This document shows, one piece after another, positions 6,360 to 61,776 of a stretch of DNA of 64,000 bases. The DNA is taken from the NCBI GenBank assembly GCA_035553055.1, contig DATNEK010000062.1, forward strand, positions 2,539 through 66,538, written 5' to 3'. A model generated the notes under the pieces. That model did not search any database. It saw nothing but the letters and a program-made list of their open reading frames with translations, and was not told the DNA's origin. This stretch comes from Streptosporangiaceae bacterium (GTDB taxonomy: Bacteria > Actinomycetota > Actinomycetes > Streptosporangiales > Streptosporangiaceae). How positions within the stretch are numbered: position 1 is the stretch's first letter; the number at the start of each line of letters is the position of its first letter. A program made the position numbers and the translations under genes.

Positions 6360-6386
6360 TACCCGCTCATCGAGCAAACACCGTCG

Positions 6387-6506: not shown

Positions 6507-6537
6507 GAGTAGAGGTTTAAGGGAGGCGACCGCGCTG

Positions 6538-47885: not shown

Positions 47886-48629
47886 ATGGGGGAACTACGG
47901 TGCGTAGACGGATCCCTGCTGGGCGTGGTGGCTGTTCCTTGTCGTGATCGGCTTGGCCGGCTGTATGACCTGACGCTTGAGCTAGTCAGGGACTCTCAGC
48001 CATTCGCGATCGTCGGCCAGCGCTGCGGTCACCAGCTCGCGTCGCTGGCCGCGCAGGTCCAGGCGGCACGGGAAGACCCGCGGCAGGCCAGGTCGTGGCC
48101 CGACCCGGACGACAGATTCCCGGTTCCCGGCGCGACCGCGATGTTTGAACCAGGCGATAACGAGTACTTCACGCTCAGGTCGCAAGGTCGTGCCGATCTT
48201 CCTGGCAACGGTGAGATGCGGTGTGTGCTCAGGTCGACCGCGCGCTGGCTGTCAGATACAGGAATTACCAGCGGCGCCAGCCGTGGTCACTGGCAACTCA
48301 GGCGTCGCGCCGTGCTCGAAGCATGGAGCGATCGAGGAACTGGTGTACGAGCTGTGCTGACCTCGGCCGAACTGGTCGTGTTCTTGGATACGGTGCTTAA
48401 AGAACCGGACCGTGCCGTCACGGCAGGCCCGTCTCCGGCCGTGCGAGCGGCCGACGAACGGCTAGGGCGCCGGACGGCCAGAACAATGAACTGGTCGGCT
48501 TGGCGGCAGCGAGGAAGGGTGCCGGATGGGTCTGCGCGATCTTGTCTACCGGCTCTACGAGCGGCGGCTCGAGGCGTCGCTCTCGCGGTCGCGGGTGCCC
48601 AGACACGTGGGAGTGATGTGCGACGGTAA
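47886..48629 (+). CDS. Orphan hypothetical ORF (possibly a decaying gene)
   Basis: GC3 is coding-like only in the central part (about 47990-48180) and atypical at both ends. There is no stop until 104 nt inside the well-supported prenyl-transferase gene. No motif recognised. Confidence 0.35.
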   Translation: MGELRCVDGSLLGVVAVPCRDRLGRLYDLTLELVRDSQPFAIVGQRCGHQLASLAAQVQAAREDPRQARSWPDPDDRFPVPGATAMFEPGDNEYFTLRSQGRADLPGNGEMRCVLRSTARWLSDTGITSGASRGHWQLRRRAVLEAWSDRGTGVRAVLTSAELVVFLDTVLKEPDRAVTAGPSPAVRAADERLGRRTARTMNWSAWRQRGRVPDGSARSCLPALRAAARGVALAVAGAQTRGSDVRR

Positions 48630-49290
48630 TCGCCGCTGGGCGCGCTCGGCGGGACTTACCGACGTCAGCACTGGCCACCGCAAGGGCGCGGACAAGATAT
48701 TCGAGTTGCTCGACTGGTGCCGCGACGCCGGCGTCGAAGTCGTGACATTGTGGCTGCTGTCCACCGACAACCTGGTGGCGAGGCCGGACTCGGAGATCGA
48801 GCCGCTGCTGGCGATCATCGAGGACACCGTCAGGGAACTTGTCGCGCAGAGCTGGCGGGTCAAACCAGTGGGCGCGCTTGACCTGCTGCCGGTGGACACC
48901 GCGCAAGTCATGAAGGACGCGGGCGAAGCGACCGCCAACTACCCCGGGCTTTTGGTCAACGTCGCCGTCGGCTACGGAGGCCGGCGTGAGATCGCCGACG
49001 CTGTCCGTTCACTGCTGCAAGAGCACGCCACCAAGGGCACCACGATCGAGGAACTCGCCGAGATCCTTGATGTCGAGCACATCGCCGAGCACCTGTACAC
49101 GGCTGGCCTGCCCGACCCCGACCTGGTGATCAGGACATCAGGCGAGCAGCGGCTCGGCGGTTTCCTGCTGTGGCAGAGCGCGCATTCTGAGTTCTACTTC
49201 TGTGACGCCTACTGGCCGGCGTTCAGGAAGGTGGATTTCCTGCGGGCGCTGAGGTCGTACGCAGGACGTCACCGTCGCTTCGGCACGTGA
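48526..49290 (+). CDS. Isoprenyl (cis-prenyl) diphosphate synthase, UppS family (syntenic with the mycobacterial Z-farnesyl-PP synthase)
   Basis: PRHVGVMCDGNRRWA, LSTDNL, IRTSGEQRLGGFLLWQSA and FRKVDFLRAL. GAGGAAGGG RBS. Confidence 0.93.
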   Translation: MGLRDLVYRLYERRLEASLSRSRVPRHVGVMCDGNRRWARSAGLTDVSTGHRKGADKIFELLDWCRDAGVEVVTLWLLSTDNLVARPDSEIEPLLAIIEDTVRELVAQSWRVKPVGALDLLPVDTAQVMKDAGEATANYPGLLVNVAVGYGGRREIADAVRSLLQEHATKGTTIEELAEILDVEHIAEHLYTAGLPDPDLVIRTSGEQRLGGFLLWQSAHSEFYFCDAYWPAFRKVDFLRALRSYAGRHRRFGT

Positions 49291-49400
49291 GCAAATTGTC
49301 ATAAACCGTGTTCGGAGCGTGCCGGTACTTCCATGTAGTGCCTTCGCCCAGGTACCGTCAAAGACTGACAGGCGGTGCGTAGCCGCCCGACGGGAAGGCC

Positions 49401-49416
49401 CTCGAGAATTCTCGAG
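49401..49416. promoter_or_regulatory. Perfect 16-bp palindrome CTCGAGAATTCTCGAG upstream of phoH2
   Basis: Read directly from the sequence. It lies in the 250-bp gap between the prenyl transferase and phoH2 genes. Its function is unknown. Confidence 0.3.
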
Positions 49417-49541
49417 CTCCGCGCCTGCGTATGCGGGCGAGATGAGCGAAGGGCCGGTGCCCGGCCCATCGCTGGCCGGTCCCCGGTCCCGGCGACAGCT
49501 TTGTGTCTGAGGTGTCGCCACGGCGAATCATTGGAGACTGA

Positions 49542-51032
49542 GTGGCCACTTCCGCAGCAGCTCGCGCAGCGGGCACGAACACTACCAGCAAGAAGGAATC
49601 GGCGACAAGCTCTGGCAGCACGAAGCCCGCGGGCACGCGGTCAAAGCGCACCACGGCAAGCCCCGCGCGGGCCAGGACAGCGCCAGCCGCGCCAGTCACC
49701 ACGGCCGCTCCGGCCGCCGACCCGTCCGGATTGGCTCGCCGTACCTATGTGCTAGACACCAGCGTCCTGCTCGCCGATCCAGGCGCATTCGGCAGATTCG
49801 CTGAGCACAGAGTCGTGCTGCCGCTGGTCGTGATCACCGAGCTTGAGGCCAAGCGCAACCATCCCGAGCTTGGCTACTTCGCCAGGGCCGCCCTCCGCTA
49901 CCTGGACGACCTGCGGATGACGCACGACCGGCTCGACGCCGACATCGAGATCGGCGATCTCGGCGGGACGGTCAGGGTCGAGCTGAACCACACCGACCCC
50001 TCGGTGCTGCCGGCCGGGTTCCGGCTTGCCGACAACGACACGAGAATCCTGTCCGTCGCGCGCAGCCTGGCGACGGAAGGCGAGAGCGTCGTCCTGGTCA
50101 GCAAGGATCTGCCACTGCGGATCAAGGCCGCGGCCATCGGCTTGGCCGCTCAGGAATATCGCGCGGAACTGCCGCCGGAAACAGGCTGGACCGGCATGCG
50201 CGAGATCGAAATCGCCGGCGCGGAGGTCGACGAGCTGTACGCCAGCGGCACGCTTGACTTGCCTGCGGCCCGTGACCTGCCATGCCACACCGGCTTGGTG
50301 CTCTACTCGAGCTGCGTGGGCTCGGGCAGCGCGCTCGGCCGGGTCCAGCCCGACAAGTCCGTCAGGCTGGTTCGCTGCGACCGCGACGTGTTCGGGCTGC
50401 GCGGCCGCAGCGCTGAGCAGCGGATCGCGCTTGACCTGCTGCTCGACCAGGAGATTGGCATCATCTCGCTCGGCGGGCGGGCAGGCACAGGCAAGTCGGC
50501 GCTCGCGCTCTGCGCCGGACTCGAAGCCGTGCTCGAACGCCGCCAGCACCGCAAAGTCGTCGTCTTCCGTCCGCTCTACCCGGTCGGCGGCCAGGAACTT
50601 GGCTACCTGCCCGGCTCGGAAGCCGACAAGATGAACCCGTGGGCGCAGGCGGTCTTCGACACGCTGGGCGCCGTCACCACCCCTGACGTCATCGACGAAG
50701 TGGTCGCCAGGGACATGCTCGAGGTTCTGCCGCTTACCCACATCAGGGGCCGGTCGCTGCACGACTCGTTCGTGATCGTGGACGAGGCGCAGTCGCTCGA
50801 GCGGGGCGTGCTGCTCACCGTGCTTTCAAGGGTCGGATCAGGCTCACGCGTGGTGCTCACGCACGACATCGCGCAACGTGACAACCTGCGCGTCGGCAGG
50901 CACGATGGCGTCGTCGCGGTGATCGAAAAGCTGAAGGGCCACCCCTTGTTCGCTCACATCACGCTCGTCCGCTCTGAGCGCTCGCAGATCGCCGCCCTCG
51001 TCACCGAGATGCTGGAGGACACGACCGGGTAG
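49542..51032 (+). CDS. phoH2: PhoH2-type protein (N-terminal PIN domain plus PhoH ATPase)
   Basis: [12 protein letters not shown] (PIN acidic residue), Walker [13 protein letters not shown] and FVIVDEAQ. The N-terminus is a low-complexity Ala/Thr/Ser/Lys-rich leader. Confidence 0.9.
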
Positions 51033-51046
51033 CCCGATGGGGTACC

Positions 51047-52099
51047 GTGACGACCGTGGCTGAACCAGTCTCGGTGATAATGCCGGTCCGCAACGAGGAG
51101 CGGCACCTGGCCGAGGCAGTCAGCGCTGTCCTGTGCCAGGACTATCCTGGCGCCCTTGAACTGGTGCTCGCGGTCGGTCCATCGAAGGATAAGACCGAGC
51201 ACATCGCGGAAGGACTTGCCGCCGCCGATCGGCGGATAACCGTAGTCGCTAACCCGTCCGGGCATATCCCGGCCGCGCTCAACGCGGCGGTCAAGGCGTC
51301 GAGGCATGACGTTGTCATCCGGGTAGACGGGCACGCGCTGCTGCCGCCCGGATACATAGCGACAGCGGTGCGGACGCTGGCGGACACCGGTGCTGTCAAT
51401 GTCGGCGGCATCATGGCCGCTGAGGGAATCACGCCGTTCCAGCGCGCGGTGGCGTGGGCGATGACCTCTCCGGCCGGCGTCGGCTCGGCGAAATACCACA
51501 CCGGCGGCGAGCCTGGCCCGGCCAGCTCGGTGTATCTCGGTGCGTTCCGCCGCTCGGCGATCGACGGCGTCGGCGGCTACGACGAGCGATACCTGCGCGC
51601 CGAGGACTGGGAGATGAACCACAGGCTCCGCGAGGCCGGTGGCCTGGTCTGGTTTCAGCCTGAGCTGAAGGTCAGCTACCGGCCCCGCGCCACTATCGGA
51701 GCGCTCTGGTCGCAGTATTTCCACTACGGCCGCTGGCGGCACGTGGTAGCCAGAATGCACGCTGGCACGATCAACCCCCGGTACCTGGCGCCGCCGACCG
51801 CGGTCAGCGCGATGGCGGTAGGGACGCTTGCCGGGCTCGCTGGCCTTTTCGCCCTGGCGGCCGGCGTCGGCGGCTGGCTGCCCTGGCTGCTGGCTGGTTT
51901 CGCCGCGCCGCTGCTCTACCTTCTTGGTGTGCTCGCGGTGACGGCAACGGCAGCGGTGTCGGTACGCGGCCAGGCTCTCGCCATGCTGCCGGCCGTGCTG
52001 GCCACCATGCACATCAGCTGGGGCGTCGGTTTCCTCACCAGCCCGCGCCGCCTGGTCCCAACCCGCCCGATGACGGCGACGTTAGTCCGTAGCGGCTAG
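51047..52099 (+). CDS. Family 2 glycosyltransferase with C-terminal membrane spans
   Basis: VSVIMPVRNEERHLAEAV, IRVDGH and RAEDWEMNHRL, followed by 3-4 C-terminal TM helices. Confidence 0.88.
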   Translation: MTTVAEPVSVIMPVRNEERHLAEAVSAVLCQDYPGALELVLAVGPSKDKTEHIAEGLAAADRRITVVANPSGHIPAALNAAVKASRHDVVIRVDGHALLPPGYIATAVRTLADTGAVNVGGIMAAEGITPFQRAVAWAMTSPAGVGSAKYHTGGEPGPASSVYLGAFRRSAIDGVGGYDERYLRAEDWEMNHRLREAGGLVWFQPELKVSYRPRATIGALWSQYFHYGRWRHVVARMHAGTINPRYLAPPTAVSAMAVGTLAGLAGLFALAAGVGGWLPWLLAGFAAPLLYLLGVLAVTATAAVSVRGQALAMLPAVLATMHISWGVGFLTSPRRLVPTRPMTATLVRSG

Positions 52100-52795
52100 G
52101 AACGACTCGGCGACCTTGAGATCGCCAGGGTAGGTGATCTTGAGGTTCCGCTCGGTGCCGGGGATTGCCCGGATTTTGACGTCGGGCAGGTACCGCAGCA
52201 CGATTCCGCAATCATCGGTTGCACTGAACCCGGCCGCGTCGGGATCGGCGGCAGCGAGCTGATAGGCGCGGCGTATCACGGAGAGCCGGAAACCCTGCGG
52301 AGTCTGGCACCGGGCGAGTGACTCCCTCGGCGGAATTGACGTCATCACGCCACCCGCAACCTCGACGATCGTGTCCGCGGTTGGTACGACGACCCCGACC
52401 GCCTGGCAGTCGGCCAGCGCGGCCACGCAGTCCGCGATGATCCGCTGATCGACCAGCGGCCTGGCCGCGTCGTGGAACAGCACATTGAAGTCGGCCGCCG
52501 ACGGGCCGTCGCCGCTGAGCAACTCGATCGCGCTTAGAGTCGAGCCAGGGCGGTCAATACCACCGGCGATGATCTCGGTGAGTTTGCTGTACCTGCTGCC
52601 GAGCAGTCTGGTGCCTTCTGCCACGAACTCGGCTGGCAACACGACGACGAGGCGTTCCACGCCGGGGGCCTGCTGGAACGCGCTGACCGAGTGCTCAAGC
52701 AGCGTCCGCCCGGCCAGCAGCTGCAGTTGCTTGGGGACCGTACCGCCAAGTCGCAGTCCTGAACCACCCGCGAGCACCACGGCGACCGTTCGCAT
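52082..52795 (-). CDS. IspD/TarI family phospho-polyol cytidylyltransferase
   Basis: AVVLAGGSGLRLGGTVPKQL, HDAARP, QTPQGF and NLKITYPGDLKVAE. Sequence alone cannot separate MEP-pathway IspD from ribitol-5-P cytidylyltransferase. The context is an envelope locus, not ispF. Confidence 0.85.
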   Translation of the reverse strand: MRTVAVVLAGGSGLRLGGTVPKQLQLLAGRTLLEHSVSAFQQAPGVERLVVVLPAEFVAEGTRLLGSRYSKLTEIIAGGIDRPGSTLSAIELLSGDGPSAADFNVLFHDAARPLVDQRIIADCVAALADCQAVGVVVPTADTIVEVAGGVMTSIPPRESLARCQTPQGFRLSVIRRAYQLAAADPDAAGFSATDDCGIVLRYLPDVKIRAIPGTERNLKITYPGDLKVAESFLAATD

Positions 52796-52812
52796 GATCG
52801 GACCTTACCTAG

Positions 52813-54630
52813 ATGGCCGATCCGGCCGCGCCGGGGCGGGTGCTGGACAGATCCGGCGTCGCACAGACGCGCCCGGTTACGGCCCGCTGCTGGTTCGGTC
52901 GCGCGATGAGTACTCTAAGTAATTGGAGAATGTCAATTGGTCATTTCCAATCGCAGCCTGGAGGGCCGATCTTCGCCGGATTGCGGCGAGCCTTTGGCGA
53001 GCCGGGGCGGACCAAGCCAGCCGCCGAGCGGACTGGCTACGCGGGTGTCGATCAAGCTGACCGGCAGTCAGCCGGGGCGCAGCCGCTCGCGCCCAACTTG
53101 TCGCTGGCCAGCCCCAACGTGCGGGCTGCGGCCGAGCCGACGCCGCGACCCGGTGGCATCGCGGGCGACCTGGCGCGACGGGGCCGCGCGGGCGCGGATT
53201 GGACGATCCGGCTGGCCGCGAACCGCGCGATCGCACCGAACTCCCTGACCGGCGTTTCCCTGCTGCTAGGCCTGTGCGCCGCCGCTTGGCTGAGCGGCGG
53301 CACCGGCCAGGACGACGTGCGCGGGCTGATCACGACCGGAACGTGGGTAGTCATGCGCGCCGCGGCCACGCGGCTTTCCTCGGCGACGGCGCGACGGGCC
53401 GGTCGCGGCGGGCAGGTCGGGCGGGGTCGGCAGCTTCAGCCCGACCGCAGCGACTGGATGGTCCTGCCGGGCTTCGACTGGAGCGGGGAAGAACCGCCGA
53501 AGCGGCCCGGCGTCGGGCGGCCCGGCTTCAGGCAGCCCCACCTCAGGCAGCCCCACCTCAGGCAGCACAGCACAGGACTGGCGCGCGAACGGGAGTTCGG
53601 CTGGTTCTACGCCGTGTGCGCGACGGCCGGGGAATCGGCCATCTACGGCGGCATCGCTGCCGGTGCCGAGTCGGCCGGATGGACCGCTACCTGGCCGCTC
53701 GCCGTCGCGATCGTGATCGTCGGGTCGATCGCGGCGATCCCGCGCGCCTGCGGTTCCGCCGCTGCCTTGGCTGGCTTCCGCAGGAGGAAGACCACCAGGG
53801 TCTTCGGCACGCTAGCCGCGCTCACCTTCCCGCCCATCGGCGGCCGCGTACTGCTGGCAACGCTGATCGTGGTCGGTTACGGACCTCGGATCGCGCTGGT
53901 CGTCGTGCTTGCCGCCGGGACGGTGTCCCTGGTTCGCACCCTCATCGAGACCGGCGGCCTGATGGCAGCGGTTCGGCGGGCGGCGGCCGCGTCGTCGGCC
54001 GGAAGGGCCGCGACCTCCGTCGTCTACGACGTGGTGGTGGCCTGCCGCGATGACGGTCCCCTCGCTCGCCGAGCTGGCTGGCTGGTACGCGGAAACCTGA
54101 TGCCGGTGCCGCCGGCCACCGCTGGCCTCGTCGCGATCGGGCTGCTCACCGCGCTCGGCATCAGGAGCCTGCCAGGCATCGTCGCGCTGACGCCCGTTGT
54201 CGTGCTGCTGCTCGCCGCGCCCGGGTCGAGCCACCCGCACGATGGACGGTCCGACTGGCTCGTACCGGTGCTGCTGTGCGTCGCGCAGTACCTGTACCTC
54301 GCGGTGCTCGGCGCGGCCGGGTCGGTGTCCTGGCTAGTCGTCTACACCGCCTGCTCGATGACCGCCATCTGGTACGCGAGCCTGACGGCGAGTCGAGCAC
54401 GGGCTACGCCCCCGCCCGCCAGGACCCGGCTCAGCAGGAGGACGCGGGTCAGCCAGATCATGGCCAGGAGAACTGAAGGCATCGGCTGGGAAGGCAGGGT
54501 CGGCCTTGTCAGCGTGGCCGGGATGTTCGGTATCGCGACGTTCGGGTACCTTGGGCTGACGGCATGCCTTGGCGTGCTGATATGCAGAAAGATGATCAGC
54601 GACTACCTGGGGGAGGACCGGCGCCAGTGA
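52813..54630 (+). CDS. Polytopic (~10-11 TM) membrane protein of unknown function, first gene of the coupled operon
   Basis: Long ORF with good GC3. Its first TM segment APNSLTGVSLLLGLCAAAWLSGG parallels SPNAVTLAFIACGVAAGVVIAFGG of the neighbouring CDP-alcohol transferase, but the DG(x2)AR motif is absent. The start is uncertain: 52813, 52906 or 52929, with an AT-rich patch at 52905-52950. Confidence 0.7.
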   Translation: MADPAAPGRVLDRSGVAQTRPVTARCWFGRAMSTLSNWRMSIGHFQSQPGGPIFAGLRRAFGEPGRTKPAAERTGYAGVDQADRQSAGAQPLAPNLSLASPNVRAAAEPTPRPGGIAGDLARRGRAGADWTIRLAANRAIAPNSLTGVSLLLGLCAAAWLSGGTGQDDVRGLITTGTWVVMRAAATRLSSATARRAGRGGQVGRGRQLQPDRSDWMVLPGFDWSGEEPPKRPGVGRPGFRQPHLRQPHLRQHSTGLAREREFGWFYAVCATAGESAIYGGIAAGAESAGWTATWPLAVAIVIVGSIAAIPRACGSAAALAGFRRRKTTRVFGTLAALTFPPIGGRVLLATLIVVGYGPRIALVVVLAAGTVSLVRTLIETGGLMAAVRRAAAASSAGRAATSVVYDVVVACRDDGPLARRAGWLVRGNLMPVPPATAGLVAIGLLTALGIRSLPGIVALTPVVVLLLAAPGSSHPHDGRSDWLVPVLLCVAQYLYLAVLGAAGSVSWLVVYTACSMTAIWYASLTASRARATPPPARTRLSRRTRVSQIMARRTEGIGWEGRVGLVSVAGMFGIATFGYLGLTACLGVLICRKMISDYLGEDRRQ

Positions 54631-55388
54631 TCGGTATGGTGCTGGCCGCCGGCGCTGGCCGTCGGCTGCGCCCGCACACCGATGCGCTGCCCAAGGCCCT
54701 GCTGCCGGTCGATGGCGAGACAACGATCTTGGACATCGGCCTGCGCAACCTCGCCGCCGTCGGCCTTAGCGAGGTCGTGATCGTCGTTGGCTACGCCGCC
54801 AGCGCTATCGCCCGTCGGGTACCCGAGCTTGAGCGGGCTTACGGCCTCACGATCAGGCTCGTGCACAACGACCGGGCGCAGGAGTGGAACAACGCCTACT
54901 CGCTCTGGCTCGCGAGATCCTATTTCGACCGTGGCGTCCTGCTCGCTAACGGCGACACCGTGCACCCCAAGAGCGTCGAAGAGTCGGTGCTGGCCCGGGC
55001 AAGCGCGATCGCTACCACCGCGCCGGCCCCGCCAGGGCGCCTCGTGATCGCGATCGACGACGTCAAGCCGCTAGCTGACGAAGAGATGAAGGTAACGCTC
55101 GATCACGCCGGGCTGATGCTGCGGATCACCAAGCTGATGGACCCGACGCTGGCGCACGGCGAGTACATAGGCGTCACCCTGATCGAGCCGTCGGCCGCGA
55201 CCGGGCTCGCCGAGGCGCTAGAGACCACCTGGCGGCGTGATCCCGGCCTGTACTACGAGGACGGGTTCGCCGAGTTCGCCAGGAGCGGAGGCGCGGTCCT
55301 GGCGGCGTCCATAGGCGTTGTTGACTGGGTCGAGGTCGACAACCACGAGGATCTGCGGCGGGCCAGGCAGATCGCCGCCCGCTGCTAA
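54627..55388 (+). CDS. LicC/IPCT-like phospho-alcohol nucleotidyl(cytidylyl)transferase
   Basis: GMVLAAGAGRRLRPHTDALPKALLPV and EWNNAYSLWL (compare YNNFYSLYL in LicC). The GTG start overlaps the upstream stop (GTGA). GGGGGAGGA RBS. Confidence 0.85.
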   Translation: MIGMVLAAGAGRRLRPHTDALPKALLPVDGETTILDIGLRNLAAVGLSEVVIVVGYAASAIARRVPELERAYGLTIRLVHNDRAQEWNNAYSLWLARSYFDRGVLLANGDTVHPKSVEESVLARASAIATTAPAPPGRLVIAIDDVKPLADEEMKVTLDHAGLMLRITKLMDPTLAHGEYIGVTLIEPSAATGLAEALETTWRRDPGLYYEDGFAEFARSGGAVLAASIGVVDWVEVDNHEDLRRARQIAARC

Positions 55389-55456
55389 CCTCACCACAGG
55401 CCCGCGCTCCGCTCGCAGGGAGCGGTCTGGCGCGACGGCTGGCTCTAGGAGGATCG

Positions 55457-56509
55457 TTGCCCCTGCTCGCCCGTATGATCGCGGCACCGCTTGTCATCGA
55501 CGTGCGGCCAGGCGCGATCGGCGGCCTCGGCGCGTTGCTCGCCGACCGCCGCATCGCCGTTGAGGGACGGGTGGCGGTGGCGGTCGGCCCTGGGCAAGGT
55601 GAGTCGATCGCGGCCGAGCTTGACATCGGCTCAGCGGAATTGTTCAAGGTTCCAGACGGCAGCCACGAGGTCGCCGTCGCCCTCGGCAAGGACCTGCGAG
55701 CAGGCACCTACGAGGCGGTGGCCGGCATCGGCGGCGGCAAGACGATAGACGTCACCAAGTTCGCGGCGCACATGGCGGGCATTCCGATGGTCTCGGTCGC
55801 GACCAGCCTTGCCCATGACGGCATCGCTTCGCCGGTGAGCACCCTGGCGCACGAGTCTGGCAACGGCTCTTATGGCGTCGTGCCGCCCGTCGCCGTCGTC
55901 GTCGACCTCAACCGGGTCAAGCACGCCCCGGGGTCGCTCGCCATCGCCGGCATCGGAGACGTCGTCAGCAACCTGTCGGCCATCGCCGACTGGGAGCTAT
56001 CCGCGGCCGACACCGGCGAACCGGTCGACGGGCTCGCCGTGGCGATGGCGAGGTCGGCCGCGCAGGCCGTGCTTAACCAGCCAGGCGAAGCCACGTCGAA
56101 CGATTTCCTGACCGTGCTGGCCGAGGCGCTGATCATGTCGGGCATGGCAATGGTCGTCGCCGGGTCGAGCCGGCCGAGCAGCGGCGGCGATCACGAGATC
56201 ATGCACGCGATCAACCACTTGTTCCCCGGCGCGGCGAGCCACGGCGAGCTGGCCGGGCTCGGCGCCTCGTTCTGCGGCTACCTACGCGGGGACACGGCGC
56301 ACTTCGAGGCGATATCCTCCTGCCTGCGCCGGCACGGCCTGCCGAGGCATCCTGAGCAGGTAGGCCTGTCGGCTGAACAGTTCACAGCCGCCGTTATGCA
56401 CGCCCCGGCGACCCGGCCCGGCCGGTACACGATCCTGGAGCGGCTCGCCATGTCACCAGCGCAGGCCCGCGCCAGAGTGGAGGAGTATGTCAGCGCCATC
56501 GCTGGCTGA
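55457..56509 (+). CDS. Iron-ADH-fold dehydrogenase resembling sn-glycerol-1-phosphate dehydrogenase (EgsA/AraM-like)
   Basis: GIGGGKTIDVTKFAA and VSVATSLAHDGIASP. The xHDGIASP block is what I recall from G1P dehydrogenases. Later His ligands are DHEIMHAINH and HGELAG. Confidence 0.75.
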   Translation: MPLLARMIAAPLVIDVRPGAIGGLGALLADRRIAVEGRVAVAVGPGQGESIAAELDIGSAELFKVPDGSHEVAVALGKDLRAGTYEAVAGIGGGKTIDVTKFAAHMAGIPMVSVATSLAHDGIASPVSTLAHESGNGSYGVVPPVAVVVDLNRVKHAPGSLAIAGIGDVVSNLSAIADWELSAADTGEPVDGLAVAMARSAAQAVLNQPGEATSNDFLTVLAEALIMSGMAMVVAGSSRPSSGGDHEIMHAINHLFPGAASHGELAGLGASFCGYLRGDTAHFEAISSCLRRHGLPRHPEQVGLSAEQFTAAVMHAPATRPGRYTILERLAMSPAQARARVEEYVSAIAG

Positions 56510-57260
56510 GCTTCGGTCGCAAGGCCAGCCGCAGGCCGTAATCGACCGGCTGAACGACGAGCACTGGGCCGGCCGTCTGTACATGCGCAAGCTGTCGCCG
56601 TACGCTACCTGGGTATTCGCCAGGCTCGGCTGGTCGCCCAACGCGGTGACGCTCGCCTTCATCGCCTGCGGCGTCGCGGCCGGAGTGGTGATCGCGTTCG
56701 GCGGGCTGCTGACCGCAATCGTCGGGGCGGTGCTGATCCAGGGATACTTGCTCTTTGACTGCTCGGACGGCGAACTGGCCAGGTGGTCGGGCCGCACCTC
56801 GGCGCGCGGGCTCTACCTGGACCTGGTCGGACACTACCTGGGCGAGAGCGCACTGCTGGTCGGGCTCGGGTTTCGCGCGCAGGGTCACCTGACGGTGTCG
56901 GGGGACTACATCACCGCCGGGGTCGGCGCGGCGCTGCTCGCGATGATCGTCAAAGCCGAGACCGACAACGTGATCGTGGCCAGGGCCAAGCAAGGGCTGC
57001 CAGCGACGTACGCCGACGCCGCGCTCGCCCCGGCTGGTTCCGGCCTGGCGCTGGCCAGGAAGCTCGCGAGCGTGCTGCGCGTTCACCGGATCACGCAGGC
57101 AGTCGAACTGTCGGTGCTTGTGCTGGCCGCGGCGATCATCGACGCCGCCAGGGGCGGCCAGGCAGCCACCCGCGTCTTGCTTCTCGTCTGCCTGGTCGTG
57201 GCGGCCCTCATGGTGATCGCGCACCTGGTGGCCATCATGGCGTCGAGGAGACTGCGTTGA
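56487..57260 (+). CDS. CDP-alcohol phosphotransferase family membrane enzyme
   Basis: Intact signature FDCSDGELARWSG...LYLDLVGHYL (D-x2-D-G-x2-A-R ... D-x3-D-like). 6 TM spans. Overlaps the preceding gene by 23 nt. Confidence 0.88.
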   Translation: MSAPSLAELRSQGQPQAVIDRLNDEHWAGRLYMRKLSPYATWVFARLGWSPNAVTLAFIACGVAAGVVIAFGGLLTAIVGAVLIQGYLLFDCSDGELARWSGRTSARGLYLDLVGHYLGESALLVGLGFRAQGHLTVSGDYITAGVGAALLAMIVKAETDNVIVARAKQGLPATYADAALAPAGSGLALARKLASVLRVHRITQAVELSVLVLAAAIIDAARGGQAATRVLLLVCLVVAALMVIAHLVAIMASRRLR

Positions 57261-58117
57261 AGCTGTCGATTGTGATCTTGACCATGGGCAACAGGCCCGA
57301 CGAGGTCGCTCGCGCGATCGGGAGCACGGAGCCGCTCCGAGCGGCAGGCGCCGAGGTGATCGTCGTAGGAAACGGCGCTGACCCGCCGCCGGTGCCAGCC
57401 GACGTGACCGCGCTCAAGCTTCCGGAGAACGCTGGCGTGCCCGGCGGCCGCAACGCGGCAGTGGCGGCCTGCACGGGCGACGTCGTGCTGTTCCTCGACG
57501 ATGATGCCTGGTATCCCGAGCCCGCGGCGCTCGGCGATCACATCACCGAGCGATTCGGCGCTGACCCGTCGCTGGCCGTGCTGTCGTTCCGTGTCGTCGA
57601 TCCGGAAGGCGGGGCAGGCGCGCGCTGGCACGTGCCGCGGCTGCGGGTCGGCGACCCCGAGCGTGCCTCAGAGGTGACCACGTTCGCCGGCGGTGCCTGC
57701 GCGATCAGGCGGTCTGCCTATGACGAGGTCGGTGGCCAGCCTGGCCGGTTCTTCTTCGGGCACGAGGAGACCGACCAGTCCTGGCGGCTGATCGGGCTTG
57801 GCTACCGGATCGAATACGACCCGGCCGCACGGGCGTGCCACCCGCCGGCTGCCAACGCCAGGCACGCGACCTGGTATCGGACGGAAGCTCGCAACCGGGT
57901 CTGGCTGGCCAGAAGAAACCTCCGGTGGCCGCTGGCGATCTGGTACCTGGCCGACTGGGTCGTGCTGACCTTGATCAGGGAACGCTCGGCAAGCGCGCTG
58001 CGCGCCTGGTTCGCCGGCTTCGCCGATGGGTGGCGGCTCGACCCTGGACCCAGGCAGTCGATGTCGCTGCGCACCATCTGGCGCCTCACCAGGGCTGGCC
58101 GCCCCCCCATCGTCTAG
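57257..58117 (+). CDS. Family 2 glycosyltransferase
   Basis: LSIVILTMGNRPDEV, NAGVPGGRN and FLDDDAW (DxD). The TTG start overlaps the upstream stop (TTGA). The track ORF from 56783 is an out-of-context N-extension. Confidence 0.85.
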   Translation: MKLSIVILTMGNRPDEVARAIGSTEPLRAAGAEVIVVGNGADPPPVPADVTALKLPENAGVPGGRNAAVAACTGDVVLFLDDDAWYPEPAALGDHITERFGADPSLAVLSFRVVDPEGGAGARWHVPRLRVGDPERASEVTTFAGGACAIRRSAYDEVGGQPGRFFFGHEETDQSWRLIGLGYRIEYDPAARACHPPAANARHATWYRTEARNRVWLARRNLRWPLAIWYLADWVVLTLIRERSASALRAWFAGFADGWRLDPGPRQSMSLRTIWRLTRAGRPPIV

Positions 58118-58178: not shown

Positions 58179-59438
58179 CTAGTGCCCGCCTAGTGGACCG
58201 GCGAAGGCGGCGGAGTCGCGGCAGGCGTTCGCGCGCGCGGTGATGCCGCCGTATTGCCCGGCCAGGTGCGACGACTGTGAGCCGCGGCCAGGTCCCTGCT
58301 GGCCGTCTGGCTTCGCAGCGGCTGCCGCGGAAGCCGGGGCATGGCCGGCCTCCGGGGTGGCGCGCGCGGCATCCGCGCGGCGTTCCGCTGCTTCGCGCGG
58401 GCCCGATCCGCGCTGTCCCGGCAGGTTGCGGTCGTGGGCTATCGCACTGAACAGATCGCTTGCCTGGGGTGCCCACTGAACCCAGTTCTGGTTCTTCGGA
58501 TACACGACGACCGGGATCTGGATGAAGCGCACGGCCGAGAGCTTCATGCTCTGCAGGTGGTTGGCCAGCCAGATCAAGTTCGCCTGAGTCAGCCCGCTGT
58601 CGGTCGTCAGCGACGCCGCGATGTCGGAGACGATCTTGTAGACCTGCGCCGGGTCGCCGAATAGGTTGGCCCGTTTCACCTCCTGGGCTACCGAAGCCAT
58701 GAGGAACTGGTCGCGTTGTATCCGCTCAAGGTCGGAGCCGGCGCCGATGTACCTGACCCGCCAGTACGCCAGCGCCGTCGCTCCCCACACGTGATGCAGG
58801 CCGCTTGAGAGCCGCAGCCTGGAGCGCGCGTCGTGGATCGCGAACGGCAGGCAGATGTCTACGCCACCAAGATCGTTGACGACGTGTTCGAACCCGGTGA
58901 AGTTGAGTTCCATGAAATGGTCAAGGCGAATGTGCGTGGCCTGCTCGATCGTCTTCCACAAGCAGTCGGGTCCGCCAAGCGCGAACGTCGCGTTGATCTG
59001 CTCGATCTGGCGGAGCTGGCCCATCTGGCCAGGAAAGCCGTCAACGGCGGCGCAGGGGAGCACAGGGACCACGGAGTCGCGCGGGATGCTGAGCACGGTC
59101 GCCCGCCGCAGGCCAGGTGACAGGTGCAGCACGAGCACGGTGTCTGACCGCTGCCCACCGATGCGAGCCCCGTACCTGGCGTTCTTGCCCTGCCTGCTGT
59201 CCGAGCCGATGACCAGAATGTTCAGCGAGTCGTTGAGCTTCGGCGGCCGCTTGCCAAGGTCTATCACCGGCACATGGTGGATTCTGCCGACGATCGCGCG
59301 GTAGGCCGCGTACCCAGTCAGCACGGCGGCGACGAGCAGGCAGGCGGTCGCAACGGCAACCCACACGCCGGCATGGGGCGTGGTCCGCCCTCGCGGCCCA
59401 CGCCCCGCAGTTCGCCGCCTTTCTCCCCCGTATTCCAT
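58179..59438 (-). CDS. LCP (LytR-CpsA-Psr) family glycopolymer ligase
   Basis: TM anchor, then NILVIGSDSR...SDTVLVLHL...VLSIPRD. It has no LytR_C domain. Confidence 0.9.
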   Translation of the reverse strand: MEYGGERRRTAGRGPRGRTTPHAGVWVAVATACLLVAAVLTGYAAYRAIVGRIHHVPVIDLGKRPPKLNDSLNILVIGSDSRQGKNARYGARIGGQRSDTVLVLHLSPGLRRATVLSIPRDSVVPVLPCAAVDGFPGQMGQLRQIEQINATFALGGPDCLWKTIEQATHIRLDHFMELNFTGFEHVVNDLGGVDICLPFAIHDARSRLRLSSGLHHVWGATALAYWRVRYIGAGSDLERIQRDQFLMASVAQEVKRANLFGDPAQVYKIVSDIAASLTTDSGLTQANLIWLANHLQSMKLSAVRFIQIPVVVYPKNQNWVQWAPQASDLFSAIAHDRNLPGQRGSGPREAAERRADAARATPEAGHAPASAAAAAKPDGQQGPGRGSQSSHLAGQYGGITARANACRDSAAFAGPLGGH

Positions 59439-60147: not shown

Positions 60148-61776
60148 TTAGGCGCCAGTGAACGCGGTTCCGTAGCCTCTGCAGACGTTCGTTCCGCCGG
60201 TGTAGCCGCTGTATTGCTTGGCGAGATTGCCTGGCGGCGCGCTCTGCTGCGGCGCGAGCGTCTTGAAGTCGGAACCGAGTATGAGCGTGACCGTGCCTGC
60301 CGTTATCGACGGGGTGAGCTGGAGCGTGACGTTCTTGCCTAGCTGTGCCGCGACAGTGCGGGCGGCCGCGAGATCTGCCGTCGAACCGTACTCCACGATC
60401 GACCCGATATAGCTGAACGTGGCCGCGCTCGACCAGCCGAGCACGTGGAAACCACGCTGGGTCAGCGCGGTGCCGGTGACGCTGGCGATGTTCTGCACGC
60501 CGGAGCCGTTCAGCACCTCGACGCTGACCTTCGACGTGCTGAGCAGCTTGGGTCCGGTGCTACTCGGGTTGGTGCGCTTGGCCTTGCCTTTGCCCGCCCG
60601 AGAGCCTGCCTTGCCTTTCTTGCCCTTGTGCACCTTCGGCAGCTTGACATCGTGTGCGACAGCGCTGAAAAGCGTTGGGTCTTGCGTCGGATCCATTTCA
60701 ACCCAGTTGGGATTGCCTGGGTAGGTAGTCGTCGGAATCTCGACGAACTGAATAGCCTTACCGTGGATCCCGGCCATGCTCCGGCCGATATCGAGGATCT
60801 TGGTAGGGCTCAGCCCAGCGTCGGTGGTCAGCGCGTGCGCGTGCACGATCGCCGACACGATCGAGTAGGTCTTGGTCAGGCTGTGCAGTACTTCGGTCTT
60901 GAGTATCCGCTGCACGACCGCGACCATCAGCAACTGGTCACGCTGGATCCGCTGCAGGTCAGAGCCGAGGCCGAAGTCCTCGCGCAACCGCCAGAACTCG
61001 AGCGCCTTGTAGCCCTTGAGGAAATGCTTGCCTGCCGTCAGGCTCAGGTGGTCATAGCGGCTCGGAAGGACCGGGGCTGGAAGGCACACCCAGACTCCGC
61101 CGAGCGCGTCGATCACGCTGATGAACCCGGTGAAGTTCAGCTCGACGAAGTCATCGATCCTGATGTGGGTGGTCTGCTCGAGGGTCTTCCACAGACAGCC
61201 AGGACCGCCGTAAGCGAACGTGGAGTTGAGCTGCTCGACATTCGGAAGGGGCTGCGCGGTCTGGCCGCCGAAGCCTGGCTCTGGCGTGCAGGACAGGATC
61301 GGCACCACGGTGTCACGCGGGAAGCTGAGCACGTAGATGTGGCTGTGACCAGGCGAGATGTGCACGATCATGACCGTGTCCGACCGCTGGCCCTGGGCGA
61401 ACCCGCCGATTTTGCGGTTGCGGCCCGATCGGCTGTCCGACCCGATCAGCAGGACGTTCATGGCGTTGTTGAACTTGGGCGGTCGCTTGCCGAGGTCGGT
61501 GACCGCGATGTGGTTGATGCCGTCGAGCACGTCGCGGTACTTGACGTAGCCAGCGAGCGCAGTCAGCACTAGCACCAACGTCAGTCCGATAGCCGACCAG
61601 CCAGTGACCAGCGTCCTAGCCGGATAGCGACCGACGCCAAGCACGCGCCCCAAACTCCATCGACGGCGCTGGCCGCGACGTTGACGCATGTCCCAGGCGC
61701 CACCACGGCGCGAGCGCGTCATCCAATCCTCCGGGCTGTGTTCGCGGCTACCGAATTCACGGACTGCCGAGGTCAC
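60148..61776 (-). CDS. LCP family glycopolymer ligase with a LytR_C domain
   Basis: NVLLIGSDSR...SDTVMIVHI...VLSFPRD and LytR_C segment VEVLNGSGVQNI...LILGSDF. The start is uncertain (61776, 61722 or 61689). Confidence 0.9.
   Translation of the reverse strand: MTSAVREFGSREHSPEDWMTRSRRGGAWDMRQRRGQRRRWSLGRVLGVGRYPARTLVTGWSAIGLTLVLVLTALAGYVKYRDVLDGINHIAVTDLGKRPPKFNNAMNVLLIGSDSRSGRNRKIGGFAQGQRSDTVMIVHISPGHSHIYVLSFPRDTVVPILSCTPEPGFGGQTAQPLPNVEQLNSTFAYGGPGCLWKTLEQTTHIRIDDFVELNFTGFISVIDALGGVWVCLPAPVLPSRYDHLSLTAGKHFLKGYKALEFWRLREDFGLGSDLQRIQRDQLLMVAVVQRILKTEVLHSLTKTYSIVSAIVHAHALTTDAGLSPTKILDIGRSMAGIHGKAIQFVEIPTTTYPGNPNWVEMDPTQDPTLFSAVAHDVKLPKVHKGKKGKAGSRAGKGKAKRTNPSSTGPKLLSTSKVSVEVLNGSGVQNIASVTGTALTQRGFHVLGWSSAATFSYIGSIVEYGSTADLAAARTVAAQLGKNVTLQLTPSITAGTVTLILGSDFKTLAPQQSAPPGNLAKQYSGYTGGTNVCRGYGTAFTGA

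What the first reader, a model, noticed from the sequence alone, without database searches (positions are those of the whole stretch)
52082..58117. Candidate undescribed pathway: glycerol-1-phosphate dehydrogenase + LicC-like cytidylyltransferase + CDP-alcohol phosphotransferase operon inside an LCP/glycosyltransferase envelope locus
Seen in the sequence: five co-directional genes (52813-58117) are chained by a GTGA overlap at 54627-54630, a 23-nt overlap at 56487-56509 and a TTGA overlap at 57257-57260. They encode an ~11-TM membrane protein and a LicC/IPCT-type phospho-alcohol cytidylyltransferase (GMVLAAGAGRRLRP, WNNAYSLW). They also encode an iron-ADH-fold enzyme with GGGKTIDVTK and SLAHDGIASP, a CDP-alcohol phosphotransferase with an intact DCSDGELAR motif, and a GT2. 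An IspD/TarI-like cytidylyltransferase is divergent from the operon. Another GT2 lies upstream, and two LCP ligases plus a large polytopic membrane protein follow. Established knowledge: the xHDGIASP-type enzymes I recall are sn-glycerol-1-phosphate dehydrogenases (archaeal EgsA, Bacillus AraM) that make the archaeal-type enantiomer. Classical wall teichoic acid uses CDP-glycerol made by TagD from sn-glycerol-3-phosphate. LicC/IPCT enzymes activate phospho-alcohols with CTP, and CDP-alcohol phosphotransferases such as DIPP synthase then form phosphodiesters. Inference: DHAP is reduced to G1P, which is activated to a CDP-glycerol and transferred as glycerol-1-phosphate onto an acceptor. The acceptor could be a lipid-linked envelope glycopolymer later attached by the LCP enzymes. 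Alternatively it could be a polyol, giving a diglycerol-phosphate-like solute. No TagD, TagF or TarJ homologue is present in the window, so this is not the textbook teichoic acid route.
Basis: partly seen in the sequence, partly recalled or inferred. Interest (0 to 1): 0.75.

Follow-up and report, generated by a model that had tools for sequence, protein, structure and literature searches.

The report
Glycerol-1-phosphate cell-envelope decoration operon
A soil actinobacterium carries a tightly conserved operon that most likely makes the "archaeal" mirror-image form of glycerol phosphate, activates it with CTP and attaches it to a cell-envelope sugar polymer, by a route I found no experimental description of.

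Summary
Five co-directional, overlapping genes sit in an LCP/GT2 envelope locus of a Streptosporangiaceae MAG. They encode a DUF5941 membrane protein, a LicC/IPCT-like nucleotidyltransferase, a G1PDH-family dehydrogenase, a CDP-alcohol phosphotransferase and a GT2.

There are two corrections. First, the phosphotransferase signature is not fully intact: the fourth Asp, the presumed catalytic base, is His. This change marks a large uncharacterised subfamily (107 of 113 motif-bearing representatives). Second, the "11-TM protein" has a degenerate CDP-alcohol-phosphotransferase-like fold plus DUF5941, and it travels with the divergent IspD-like gene rather than with the G1P module.

The NTase–G1PDH pair is adjacent in 72 of 78 related loci. 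A published survey finds the set in about 92% of Streptomyces genomes, next to tagGH. The trio recurs in a 32% GC organism. In an FCB-like lineage a GpsA-type G3P dehydrogenase replaces G1PDH. These distant copies lie in Wzx/GT/TagF-type surface-glycan loci.

This supports DHAP → glycerol phosphate → CDP-glycerol → glycerophosphate transfer onto an envelope glycoconjugate. It argues against a compatible solute or an ether lipid. Stereochemistry, nucleotide and acceptor remain inferred. I rate it a new variant of a known kind, interest about 0.68.

The parts
48526..49290 (+). cis-prenyltransferase (undecaprenyl-diphosphate-synthase family); a possible lipid-carrier supplier. Context only.
   Evidence: Pfam Prenyltransf, 238 bits. 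The same position is kept in L081 and L082.
51047..52099 (+). GT2 glycosyltransferase with C-terminal TM helices (GT2a)
   Evidence: Pfam Glycos_transf_2, 75 bits. Hydropathy shows TM segments at residues 256-299. Found in 57 related loci.
52082..52795 (-). IspD/TarI-like cytidylyltransferase, divergent from the operon. Probably a paralogue that activates a polyol phosphate.
   Evidence: Pfam IspD, 158 bits. It scores below both the IspD cutoff (166.6 vs 181.3) and the ribitol-5-P cytidylyltransferase cutoff (133 vs 166). It is equidistant from solved IspD and TarI structures, about 90-100 bits each. It stays next to the DUF5941 gene in L081, where the G1P module is missing.
52813..54630 (+). 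Polytopic membrane protein of the DUF5941 family. The N-terminal half has a CDP-alcohol-phosphotransferase-like fold without the catalytic motif. The C-terminal half has invariant RDDG and HPHDGxxDW motifs. The start may be near 52930.
   Evidence: Homologues carry PF19365. The AF2 model has pLDDT 78. The top Foldseek PDB hits are AF2299, PgsA1, PIPS and CEPT1, with probability about 1 but weak E-values of 0.08-0.6. In L089 the same slot holds a canonical CDP-OH_P_transf protein plus a separate DUF5941 protein. Invariant columns are listed.
54627..55388 (+). LicC/IPCT-like nucleotidyltransferase; proposed CTP:glycerol-1-phosphate cytidylyltransferase
   Evidence: Pfam NTP_transf_3 and NTP_transferase. 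The best solved relative is LicC 1JYK at 48.9 bits, followed by MurU and IPCT. It lies directly upstream of G1PDH in 72/78 loci. Homologues sit next to G1PDH-like or GpsA-like dehydrogenases in distant lineages.
55457..56509 (+). G1PDH-family (EgsA/AraM) NAD(P)H-dependent dehydrogenase; proposed DHAP to sn-glycerol-1-phosphate
   Evidence: NF002022, 224 bits, against GldA at 48 bits. PDB G1PDH entries 4RGQ, 4RFL and 5FB3 score 123-130 bits; GldA scores 51 bits or less. D168, H246 and H262 are invariant and align with GD, EH and HGE of M. jannaschii G1PDH. There are more than 4700 homologues, and JGI names them G1PDH.
56487..57260 (+). CDP-alcohol phosphotransferase of a His-variant subfamily (D-x2-DG-x2-AR-x8-G-x3-D-x3-H); proposed glycerophosphotransferase
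   Evidence: PF01066, 28.6 bits. H116 aligns with D4 of AF2299 and with D93 of PgsA1. His is present in 57/58 orthologues and in 107/113 motif-bearing representatives. The AF2 model has pLDDT 87; Foldseek gives AF2299, PIPS and IPCT-DIPPS at E 5e-5 to 1e-3 and TMq about 0.6.
57257..58117 (+). Soluble GT2 glycosyltransferase (GT2b), translationally coupled to the phosphotransferase
   Evidence: Pfam Glycos_transf_2, 44.6 bits. TTGA overlap. Four representative clusters appear as a single phosphotransferase-GT2 polypeptide: P0274, P0306, P0334 and P0389.
58179..59438 (-). LCP-family glycopolymer-to-peptidoglycan ligase, convergent with the operon
   Evidence: Pfam LytR_cpsA_psr, 129 bits; TIGR00350, 132 bits.
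60148..61776 (-). Second LCP ligase, with a LytR_C domain
   Evidence: Pfam LytR_cpsA_psr, 132 bits, plus LytR_C, 53 bits.
62581..64000 (+). 5' part of a large polytopic membrane protein (about 790 aa in relatives) with no family assignment
   Evidence: tblastn with the 791-aa L082 protein gives 65% identity over 463 residues. There is no Pfam record for the L081 and L082 orthologues.

Best explanation
The operon is a dedicated supply-and-transfer module for glycerophosphate in cell-envelope glycopolymer synthesis. The proposed steps are:
1. The G1PDH-family enzyme reduces DHAP to sn-glycerol-1-phosphate.
2. The LicC/IPCT-like nucleotidyltransferase condenses it with CTP to give CDP-glycerol. 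This would be the enantiomer of the TagD product.
3. The membrane-embedded His-variant CDP-alcohol phosphotransferase transfers glycerophosphate, releasing CMP, onto a membrane-bound acceptor. The acceptor is most likely a polyprenyl-linked glycan or glycolipid.
4. The translationally coupled GT2 builds or extends that acceptor.
5. The product is exported and attached to peptidoglycan by the adjacent LCP ligases. A lipid-anchored, LTA-like fate is also possible.

The DUF5941 protein is a degenerate phosphotransferase-like membrane protein. Together with the divergent IspD/TarI-like cytidylyltransferase it forms a second, separable module at the same locus.

Shown here: gene identities at family level, the His-for-Asp change, and the conserved or replaceable gene neighbourhoods. 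Inferred: every substrate, the stereochemistry and the acceptor.
For: -
- NTase and G1PDH are adjacent in 72/78 loci. G1PDH and the phosphotransferase are the best-conserved genes of the locus apart from PhoH2, with median identities of 75% and 78%.
- The trio NTase / G1PDH-like (NF002022, 223 bits) / His-variant phosphotransferase recurs in a 32% GC genome, beside Wzx, LicD and TagF-like genes.
- In L084 and L086 the same NTase and His-variant flank a GpsA-type G3P dehydrogenase instead. This non-homologous replacement points to glycerol phosphate as the activated alcohol.
- L089 places the module in one string with a TagF-GT2 fusion and near an LCP gene.
- Nonomuraea has G1PDH immediately after a TagF-like gene.
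- In Streptomyces the set is syntenic with tagG and tagH in about 800 of 856 genomes.
- Phosphotransferase-GT2 fusions exist.
- The window holds three LCP genes and a cis-prenyltransferase but no TagD.
Against: - There is no biochemical evidence of any kind.
- The G1PDH score is below NCBI's equivalog cutoff (224 vs 413), so the substrate and the enantiomer are extrapolated.
- The NTase nucleotide and alcohol specificity cannot be read from sequence. Its best hits include UTP- and sugar-1-P-using enzymes.
- His replaces the presumed catalytic base and Mg-2 ligand (PMC6506517), so the chemistry may differ from canonical members.
- The window has no exporter (TagGH or Wzx) and no initiating phosphoglycosyl transferase.
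- Thirteen related loci keep NTase-G1PDH but lack the phosphotransferase and GT2 nearby.
- Some Nonomuraea G1PDH genes have unrelated neighbours.
Confidence: 0.6

Rival explanations
1. Kennedy-type lipid head-group synthesis. CDP-glycerol is transferred directly onto diacylglycerol or a glycolipid. The product would be phosphatidylglycerol (whose head group is sn-glycerol-1-phosphate), a glycerophosphoglycolipid or an LTA anchor, and not a wall-linked polymer.
For: The closest solved folds are lipid head-group synthases and CDP-alcohol:lipid transferases (PIPS, PgsA1, CHPT1/CEPT1). The enzyme is an integral membrane protein. Actinomycetes make LTA without LtaS (PMC3196553).
Against: The distant copies sit in Wzx/Wzy/GT polysaccharide loci. 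There is coupling and fusion to a GT2. LCP genes lie beside the operon, and tagGH is syntenic in Streptomyces.
Confidence: 0.15
2. The activated alcohol is not sn-glycerol-1-phosphate but another small polyol phosphate. One example would be glycerol-2-phosphate, as in the pneumococcal Gtp1-3 CDP-2-glycerol route. A different nucleotide is also possible.
For: The G1PDH score is below the curated cutoff. L090 shows the same NTase plus phosphotransferase pair fed by an aldolase, an FGGY kinase and a generic Fe-ADH, so the module accepts other precursors. CDP-2-glycerol genes exist in pneumococcal cps loci (PMC1391919).
Against: No kinase or phosphotransferase equivalent to Gtp3 is in the operon. 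G1PDH is by far the best model and the best structural relative. Replacement by GpsA (DHAP to G3P) in L084 and L086 argues for direct reduction of DHAP to a glycerol phosphate.
Confidence: 0.1
3. Synthesis of a cytoplasmic compatible solute (a diglycerol-phosphate or glycerophospho-inositol type) by an IPCT/DIPPS-like enzyme pair.
For: The same two enzyme families are used as in IPCT/DIPPS. There are weak NCBIfam hits to the bifunctional IPCT/DIPPS model for both proteins.
Against: True IPCT/DIPPS-like proteins keep the fourth Asp and form a separate group of about 411 aa. This subfamily is His-type and is linked to GT2, Wzx, TagF, LicD, LCP and tagGH genes. It is conserved in mesophilic soil actinomycetes. 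No phosphatase gene is in the operon.
Confidence: 0.04
4. Archaeal-type ether lipid synthesis, the role usually assumed for bacterial G1PDH in the evolutionary literature. G1P would be prenylated by a PcrB/GGGPS-type enzyme.
For: Bacillus AraM feeds PcrB. Coleman et al. propose the same for Streptomyces (PMC6431249). A cis-prenyltransferase lies four genes upstream.
Against: No PcrB/GGGPS or UbiA-type prenyltransferase is in the window or in any of the 90 loci examined. The conserved partners are a nucleotidyltransferase and a CDP-alcohol phosphotransferase.
Confidence: 0.03

Closest known systems
Classical wall teichoic acid route: TagD/TarD (CTP:sn-glycerol-3-phosphate cytidylyltransferase) plus TagB/TagF glycerophosphotransferases, TagGH export and LCP ligation
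   Same: The logic is the same. A glycerol phosphate is activated as CDP-glycerol and transferred on the cytoplasmic face of the membrane to a lipid-linked glycan, which LCP enzymes then ligate. TagF-like genes and tagGH accompany the module in relatives.
   Different: All three enzymes are non-homologous to their classical counterparts. A dedicated G1PDH replaces the housekeeping G3P pool. A Rossmann-like LicC/IPCT-type NTase replaces the HxGH-type TagD. A polytopic CDP-alcohol phosphotransferase replaces the TagB/TagF fold. The predicted enantiomer is sn-1.
IPCT/DIPPS (di-myo-inositol-phosphate synthesis; PDB 4MND, 2XME) and AF2299
   Same: The same pair of enzyme families act in sequence: alcohol-phosphate cytidylyltransferase, then CDP-alcohol phosphotransferase. 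These are the best structural matches.
   Different: Those enzymes are fused, keep the fourth Asp, use inositol-1-phosphate and make a soluble osmolyte. Here the genes are separate, D4 is His, a G1PDH is attached and the context is the cell envelope.
Bacillus subtilis AraM / archaeal EgsA G1P dehydrogenases
   Same: The same family. AraM is the only experimentally known bacterial source of sn-G1P, and the putative Zn-ligand positions are conserved here.
   Different: AraM feeds PcrB to make heptaprenylglyceryl phosphate, and EgsA feeds archaeal membrane lipids. Here the partners are an NTase and a phosphotransferase, and no prenyltransferase is present.
Pneumococcal LicC/LicD phosphocholine pathway and Gtp1-3/WchX CDP-2-glycerol pathway
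   Same: A LicC-type NTase activates a small alcohol phosphate so that it can decorate a surface glycan. LicC is the nearest solved relative of the NTase. LicD genes lie near the trio in L087.
   Different: In those pathways the transferase is LicD/WchX-type, not a CDP-alcohol phosphotransferase. The alcohol is choline or glycerol-2-phosphate, and a kinase or phosphotransferase step is needed.
Streptomyces 'orphan' synteny block (PMC13118837, 2026)
   Same: The gene set is the same: CDP-alcohol phosphatidyltransferase family protein, GT2, sugar-phosphate nucleotidyltransferase and araM. It is present in about 92% of 929 genomes.
   Different: That paper only records the synteny with tagG, tagH and crtB. 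It proposes no pathway and does not note the His variant. The window lacks tagGH and has LCP genes instead.

Membership tests
sn-Glycerol-1-phosphate dehydrogenase (EgsA/AraM) | Fe-ADH/DHQS-like fold, with best match to the curated G1PDH model rather than to GldA, DHQS or ADH | tested here: met
   PF13685, 84.6 bits. NF002022, 224 bits, against GldA at 48 and DHQS at 18. PDB G1PDHs score 123-130 bits; GldA scores 51 or less.
sn-Glycerol-1-phosphate dehydrogenase (EgsA/AraM) | Score reaches the curated equivalog cutoff | tested here: not met
   224 bits against a cutoff of 413 for NF002022. The bacterial clade is divergent from the archaeal seed. NCBI names the protein only 'iron-containing alcohol dehydrogenase family', while JGI/KEGG calls homologues G1PDH.
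sn-Glycerol-1-phosphate dehydrogenase (EgsA/AraM) | Metal-binding Asp/His/His triad | tested here: met
   D168, H246 and H262 are invariant in 20 homologues. They align with GD, EH and HGE of M. jannaschii G1PDH. Their assignment as Zn ligands comes from my knowledge of GldA and G1PDH structures.
sn-Glycerol-1-phosphate dehydrogenase (EgsA/AraM) | Stereospecific DHAP to sn-G1P activity | not testable with these tools
   Needs an enzyme assay with chiral product analysis.
LicC/IPCT-type alcohol-phosphate cytidylyltransferase | N-terminal GxGxR(L)x6PK nucleotide-binding signature and a GT-A-like NTP_transferase fold | tested here: met
   LAAGAGRRLRPHTDALPKAL is present. PF12804 and PF00483 match. 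The best solved relative is LicC 1JYK, including the WNNAYSLW / YNNFYSLY block.
LicC/IPCT-type alcohol-phosphate cytidylyltransferase | CTP specificity and identity of the alcohol phosphate | not testable with these tools
   Only context is available. The NTase is adjacent to G1PDH-type or GpsA-type dehydrogenases in four lineages.
CDP-alcohol phosphotransferase (PF01066) | Full signature D1xxD2GxxARx8GxxxD3xxxD4 | tested here: not met
   D91, D94, G95, A98, R99, G108 and D112 are present, but D4 is His116. His occurs in 57/58 orthologues and in 107/113 motif-bearing representatives. D4 is the presumed catalytic base (PMC6506517).
CDP-alcohol phosphotransferase (PF01066) | Pfam gathering score and the six-TM fold | tested here: met
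   28.6 bits against a cutoff of 22. The AF2 model (pLDDT 87) matches AF2299, PIPS and IPCT-DIPPS at E 5e-5 to 1e-3, probability 1.0, TMq 0.5-0.64.
Classical CDP-glycerol wall teichoic acid pathway (TagD/TagB/TagF/TagO/TagGH) | Presence of a TagD-type cytidylyltransferase, a TagB/F-type glycerophosphotransferase, a TagO initiator and the TagGH exporter | tested here: not met
   None found among about 55 ORFs of the window or by tblastn. TagF-like genes do occur at the homologous locus in relatives, and tagGH occurs in Streptomyces.
LCP (LytR-CpsA-Psr) glycopolymer ligases | LytR_cpsA_psr catalytic domain with an N-terminal TM anchor | tested here: met
   129 and 132 bits, with a third copy at 34846-36372 (127 bits). 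TM segments are shown.
DUF5941 (PF19365) | Match to the Pfam model | tested here: inconclusive
   The window protein itself gives no Pfam hit even at E = 1. Homologues with 35-70% identity carry PF19365, and the conserved motifs are shared.

The most novel reading that the evidence does not exclude
The module is the long-sought LtaS-independent source of glycerophosphate polymers in Actinobacteria. It would also be the physiological role of the 'archaeal' G1P dehydrogenase in bacteria. Cytoplasmic CDP-sn-1-glycerol, the mirror image of the TagD product, would be used by a new His-type class of CDP-alcohol phosphotransferase. One possibility is that polyprenyl phosphate is the acceptor, giving a pyrophosphate-linked primer that LCP enzymes can ligate. 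An anionic phosphate acceptor would also explain why the catalytic-base Asp is replaced by His. The resulting wall- or lipid-linked poly- or mono-glycerophosphate would have the sn-1 configuration of lipoteichoic acid.
Probability: 0.2. Interest if true: 0.85.

Novelty: new variant of a known kind. Interest (0 to 1): 0.68.

Why it matters
- Bacterial G1PDH has been used for twenty years in arguments about the archaeal/bacterial "lipid divide" (PMC6431249, PMC5059525, PMC1586193). Outside Bacillus no physiological role is known. A conserved link to a cytidylyltransferase and a phosphotransferase in envelope loci gives a concrete, testable role that is not a membrane lipid.
- Actinomycetes make poly(glycerophosphate) LTA and WTA but lack LtaS (PMC3196553). 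This module is a candidate for the missing chemistry.
- The His-variant CDP-alcohol phosphotransferases form a large subfamily that spans phyla (3305 representative clusters at E <= 1e-3) and has no characterised member that I could find. Defining their acceptor would add a new class of alditol-phosphate transferase to glycoconjugate biosynthesis.
- The genes are nearly universal in Streptomyces and among the most conserved at the locus, so they may matter for growth or development.

Tried and rejected
- **Archaeal-type lipid reading.** Rejected: no GGGPS/PcrB or UbiA gene appears in the window or in any fetched locus.
- **Compatible-solute reading.** Disfavoured: the Asp-type, roughly 411-aa IPCT/DIPPS-like proteins form a separate group, and all contexts are surface-glycan loci.
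- **Housekeeping IspD.** The divergent gene is unlikely to be the housekeeping IspD. It scores below both the IspD and TarI cutoffs and reaches only about 100 bits to mycobacterial IspD structures. I could not verify this without the whole genome.
- **Profile-profile comparison.** The DUF5941 protein against the phosphotransferase family gave only a weak match at the PNxxT helix (probability 13%). The fold-level similarity therefore rests on Foldseek hits with probability about 1 but weak E-values.
- **Signal scans.** Promoter/terminator, Rfam and tRNA scans of the window gave nothing.
- **Literature.** Searches for DUF5941, and for the combination of CDP-alcohol, CDP-glycerol and polysaccharide, returned no papers. 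The M. jannaschii G1PDH and AF2299/IPCT-DIPPS structure papers are not held, so the G1P phosphate-binding residues could not be checked.
- **Genome scan.** It returned only the 80 closest loci, all Streptosporangiaceae or Nonomuraea. Breadth had to come from a published Streptomyces survey and from five look-ups of distant His-variant proteins.
- **Nonomuraea.** Its G1PDH contexts are heterogeneous. TagF is adjacent in L070 and L075, while L059 has unrelated neighbours. That link is weak.

Full report
**Source and observation**

The window is high-GC DNA (61-72% across the window). It comes from a Streptosporangiaceae metagenome-assembled genome: the dehydrogenase is 100% identical to an NCBI MAG protein on a 69.9-kb contig.

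- The membrane-protein gene ends in GTGA at 54627-54630, where the nucleotidyltransferase can start. An ATG at 54636 is an alternative start.
- After a 68-nt spacer carrying an AGGAGG site, the dehydrogenase starts at TTG 55457.
- It overlaps the phosphotransferase gene by 23 nt (56487-56509).
- That gene ends in TTGA (57257-57260), where the second GT2 starts.
- The start of the first gene is uncertain. A 99%-identical database protein begins 39 codons further in.

**Gene identities**

| Coordinates | Assignment | Evidence |
|---|---|---|
| 54627-55388 | NTP_transferase-type enzyme |. Nearest solved relative is pneumococcal LicC (48.9 bits, including the WNNAYSLW block), then MurU and IPCT |
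| 55457-56509 | G1PDH family | NF002022 224 bits vs 48 for glycerol dehydrogenase. Solved G1PDHs (4RGQ/4RFL, 5FB3) 123-130 bits vs 51 or less for GldA |
| 56487-57260 | CDP-alcohol phosphotransferase | Passes the Pfam threshold. AlphaFold model (pLDDT 87) matches AF2299, PIP synthases and IPCT-DIPPS (E 5e-5 to 1e-3) |
| 57257-58117 | Soluble GT2 | |
| 51047-52099 | GT2 with C-terminal TM helices | |
| 52082-52795 (-) | IspD/TarI-like | Below both curated cutoffs, equidistant from solved IspD and TarI |
| 58179-59438 (-), 60148-61776 (-) | LCP ligases | |
| about 62581 to the window end (+) | Unassigned polytopic protein | |

For the dehydrogenase, D168, H246 and H262 are invariant in homologues. 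They align with the GD, EH and HGE positions of the M. jannaschii enzyme. Its score is below NCBI's equivalog cutoff of 413, so it is a divergent bacterial member of the family.

Scanning about 55 ORFs of the window found no TagD, TagF, TarJ, TagO, TagGH or Wzx (tblastn).

**Correction 1: the phosphotransferase signature**

The family signature is D1xxD2GxxARx8GxxxD3xxxD4. Here it reads D91..D94-G..A-R..G108...D112...H116. His116 aligns with D4 of AF2299 and with D93 of M. tuberculosis PgsA1. D93 is the Mg-2 ligand and the presumed catalytic base (PMC6506517).

The His is not an accident of this genome.
- It occurs in 57 of 58 orthologues in related loci.
- It occurs in 107 of the 113 motif-bearing sequences among the best 150 representatives of an exhaustive search. 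None of those has Asp.
- That search found 3305 representative clusters at E <= 1e-3 and 461 at E <= 1e-10.
- The nearest Asp-type proteins are the IPCT/DIPPS-like group of about 411 aa.

So this is a large, distinct His-variant subfamily. I found no characterised member.

**Correction 2: the membrane protein**

The first gene product belongs to the DUF5941 family: its homologues carry PF19365. Its AlphaFold model (pLDDT 78) finds only CDP-alcohol phosphotransferases as consistent structural matches, at probability about 1 but weak E-values.

It keeps the PNxxT helix but lacks the Asp motif. The invariant residues are in the C-terminal half (RDDG and HPHDGxxDW).

In a 72% GC relative (L089) the same slot holds a canonical, Asp-type phosphotransferase of 529 aa followed by a separate 202-aa DUF5941 protein.

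In L081 the IspD-like and DUF5941 genes remain although the NTase, G1PDH, phosphotransferase and GT2 genes are absent. The five-gene string is therefore two modules.

**Conservation**

A genome scan with a G1PDH alignment returned 80 loci, out of at least 434 relatives. Counts among loci with enough flanking sequence:

| Feature | Loci |
|---|---|
| NTase directly upstream of G1PDH | 72/78 |
| Phosphotransferase directly downstream | 57/75 |
| GT2b following | 52/70 |
| IspD-like gene within 10 kb upstream | 60/65 |
| LCP gene within 10 kb downstream | 55/65 |

G1PDH (median 75% identity) and the phosphotransferase (78%) are, after PhoH2, the most conserved genes of the locus. The DUF5941 protein is the least conserved (36%).

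Variants are informative.
- Thirteen loci keep NTase-G1PDH but have other membrane proteins in place of the phosphotransferase and GT2.
- Seven loci have a TagF-like gene inserted beside the IspD-like gene.
- In two Nonomuraea genomes G1PDH follows a 950-aa TagF-like gene. Another Nonomuraea copy has unrelated neighbours.

A 2026 survey of 929 Streptomyces genomes lists the same phosphotransferase, GT2 and nucleotidyltransferase as conserved "orphans". They are present in 856, 843 and 855 genomes and are syntenic with araM, tagG and tagH (PMC13118837).

**Distant contexts**

I looked up contigs that encode remote His-variant proteins.

| Locus | GC | Gene order and neighbours |
|---|---|---|
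| L087 | 32% | NTase, G1PDH-like (NF002022 223 bits), His-variant; then Wzx, two LicD genes, a second Wzx, TagF-like |
| L084 / L086 | 43% / 54%, one with a T9SS-tail protein | Wzx, NTase, GpsA-type G3P dehydrogenase, canonical phosphotransferase, His-variant; among GT and UDP-sugar genes |
| L090 | 68% | Aldolase, FGGY kinase, generic Fe-ADH, then NTase, phosphotransferase, His-variant, Wzx |
| L088 | 46% | NTase and His-variant in a Wzy/Wzx/Bac_transf locus |

Replacement of G1PDH by a non-homologous enzyme that also reduces DHAP to a glycerol phosphate is the strongest indirect evidence here. It indicates that the NTase activates glycerol phosphate and that the His-variant transfers it.

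Four representative clusters appear as single phosphotransferase-GT2 polypeptides. Some of these could be read-through artefacts of the 4-nt overlap.

**Interpretation**

The best-supported model has five steps.
1. DHAP is reduced to sn-G1P by G1PDH.
2. G1P is activated to CDP-glycerol by the NTase.
3. Glycerophosphate is transferred by the His-variant phosphotransferase to a membrane-bound glycoconjugate.
4. The coupled GT2 builds or extends that glycoconjugate.
5. The product is exported and ligated by LCP enzymes.

This is the logic of wall teichoic acid synthesis, carried out by three non-homologous enzymes and probably with the opposite glycerol enantiomer. The substrates, the stereochemistry and the acceptor are all inferred. 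I put the confidence at about 0.6.

Rivals, in decreasing order of likelihood:
- Direct lipid head-group or LTA-anchor synthesis.
- A different polyol phosphate, such as the pneumococcal CDP-2-glycerol route (PMC1391919).
- A compatible solute.
- An archaeal-type ether lipid. This is the usual assumption in the evolutionary literature (PMC6431249), but no prenyltransferase partner is present in any locus.

**Novelty and limits**

Actinobacterial G1PDH is well known from phylogenomic work (PMC6431249, PMC5059525, PMC1586193). The Streptomyces synteny was noted in 2026.

In the held library I found no functional or mechanistic description of the pathway, no mention of the His variant and no paper on DUF5941. 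The library covers only open-access papers, so a description elsewhere cannot be excluded.

How actinomycetes make poly(glycerophosphate) LTA and WTA without LtaS is an acknowledged open question (PMC3196553). This module makes that question directly testable.

Noticed in passing
window 34846-36372 (+): A third LCP (LytR_cpsA_psr + LytR_C) gene lies about 16 kb upstream of the operon. It follows a peptide ABC transporter, isoaspartyl peptidase and D-aminopeptidase block.
   Followed up: no
window 4977-7746, 19730-21712, 48526-51032: The gene order runs cystathionine beta-synthase, cystathionine gamma-lyase-type PLP enzyme, GreA, PIG-L deacetylase, cis-prenyltransferase, PhoH2 (PIN + PhoH). From memory this resembles the mycobacterial Rv1077-Rv1095 region. 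If so, the envelope locus is inserted into an old actinobacterial core-genome neighbourhood.
   Followed up: no
window 62581-64000 (+); L082:18976-21351; L081:16740-18980: A conserved polytopic membrane protein of about 750-790 aa, with 12 or more hydrophobic segments and no Pfam family, lies divergent from the two LCP genes. It could be a GT-C-like transferase or an exporter for the locus.
   Followed up: partly
L031:11080-12978 (-) and L031:13240-14829 (+), and 12 similar loci: In 13 related genomes the phosphotransferase and GT2 genes after G1PDH are replaced by two unassigned polytopic membrane proteins and a methyltransferase. NTase-G1PDH is kept.
   Followed up: partly
L014, L016, L021, L025, L027, L047, L057 (between the GT2a and IspD-like genes); L075:6903-9755; L089:1-3189: TagF-like CDP-glycerol glycerophosphotransferase genes appear at variable positions of the homologous locus. 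They include a 1174-aa GT2-GT2-TagF fusion. This part of the locus looks like a hot spot for exchange of teichoic-type genes.
   Followed up: partly
L087:573-1868 (-): Next to the low-GC NTase-G1PDH-phosphotransferase trio there is a fusion of an HxGH cytidylyltransferase domain with PEP mutase, plus two LicD genes. This suggests phosphonate decoration of the same glycan.
   Followed up: no
L084:9298-10762, L086:9283-10768, L090:6153-7804, L089:4049-5638 plus 8001-8765: His-variant phosphotransferases are repeatedly paired with a second phosphotransferase-like gene. It is immediately adjacent, and Asp-type, in L084 and L086. It is adjacent but itself His-type in L090. It is Asp-type but three genes away in L089. 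It is degenerate in the window. These enzymes are dimers, so a heterodimer is conceivable.
   Followed up: partly
window 56490-57224 (-), 53199-54053 (+), 50954-52012 (-): Long ORFs in antisense or alternative frames overlap the real genes. This is typical of high-GC DNA. I set them aside because the GC3-based gene call selected other ORFs over these stretches.
   Followed up: yes
P0263 (591 aa): One representative fuses a His-variant phosphotransferase to an N-terminal domain of about 340 aa. That domain has no Pfam match, and I read it as sulfotransferase-like from its P-loop-like motif.
   Followed up: no
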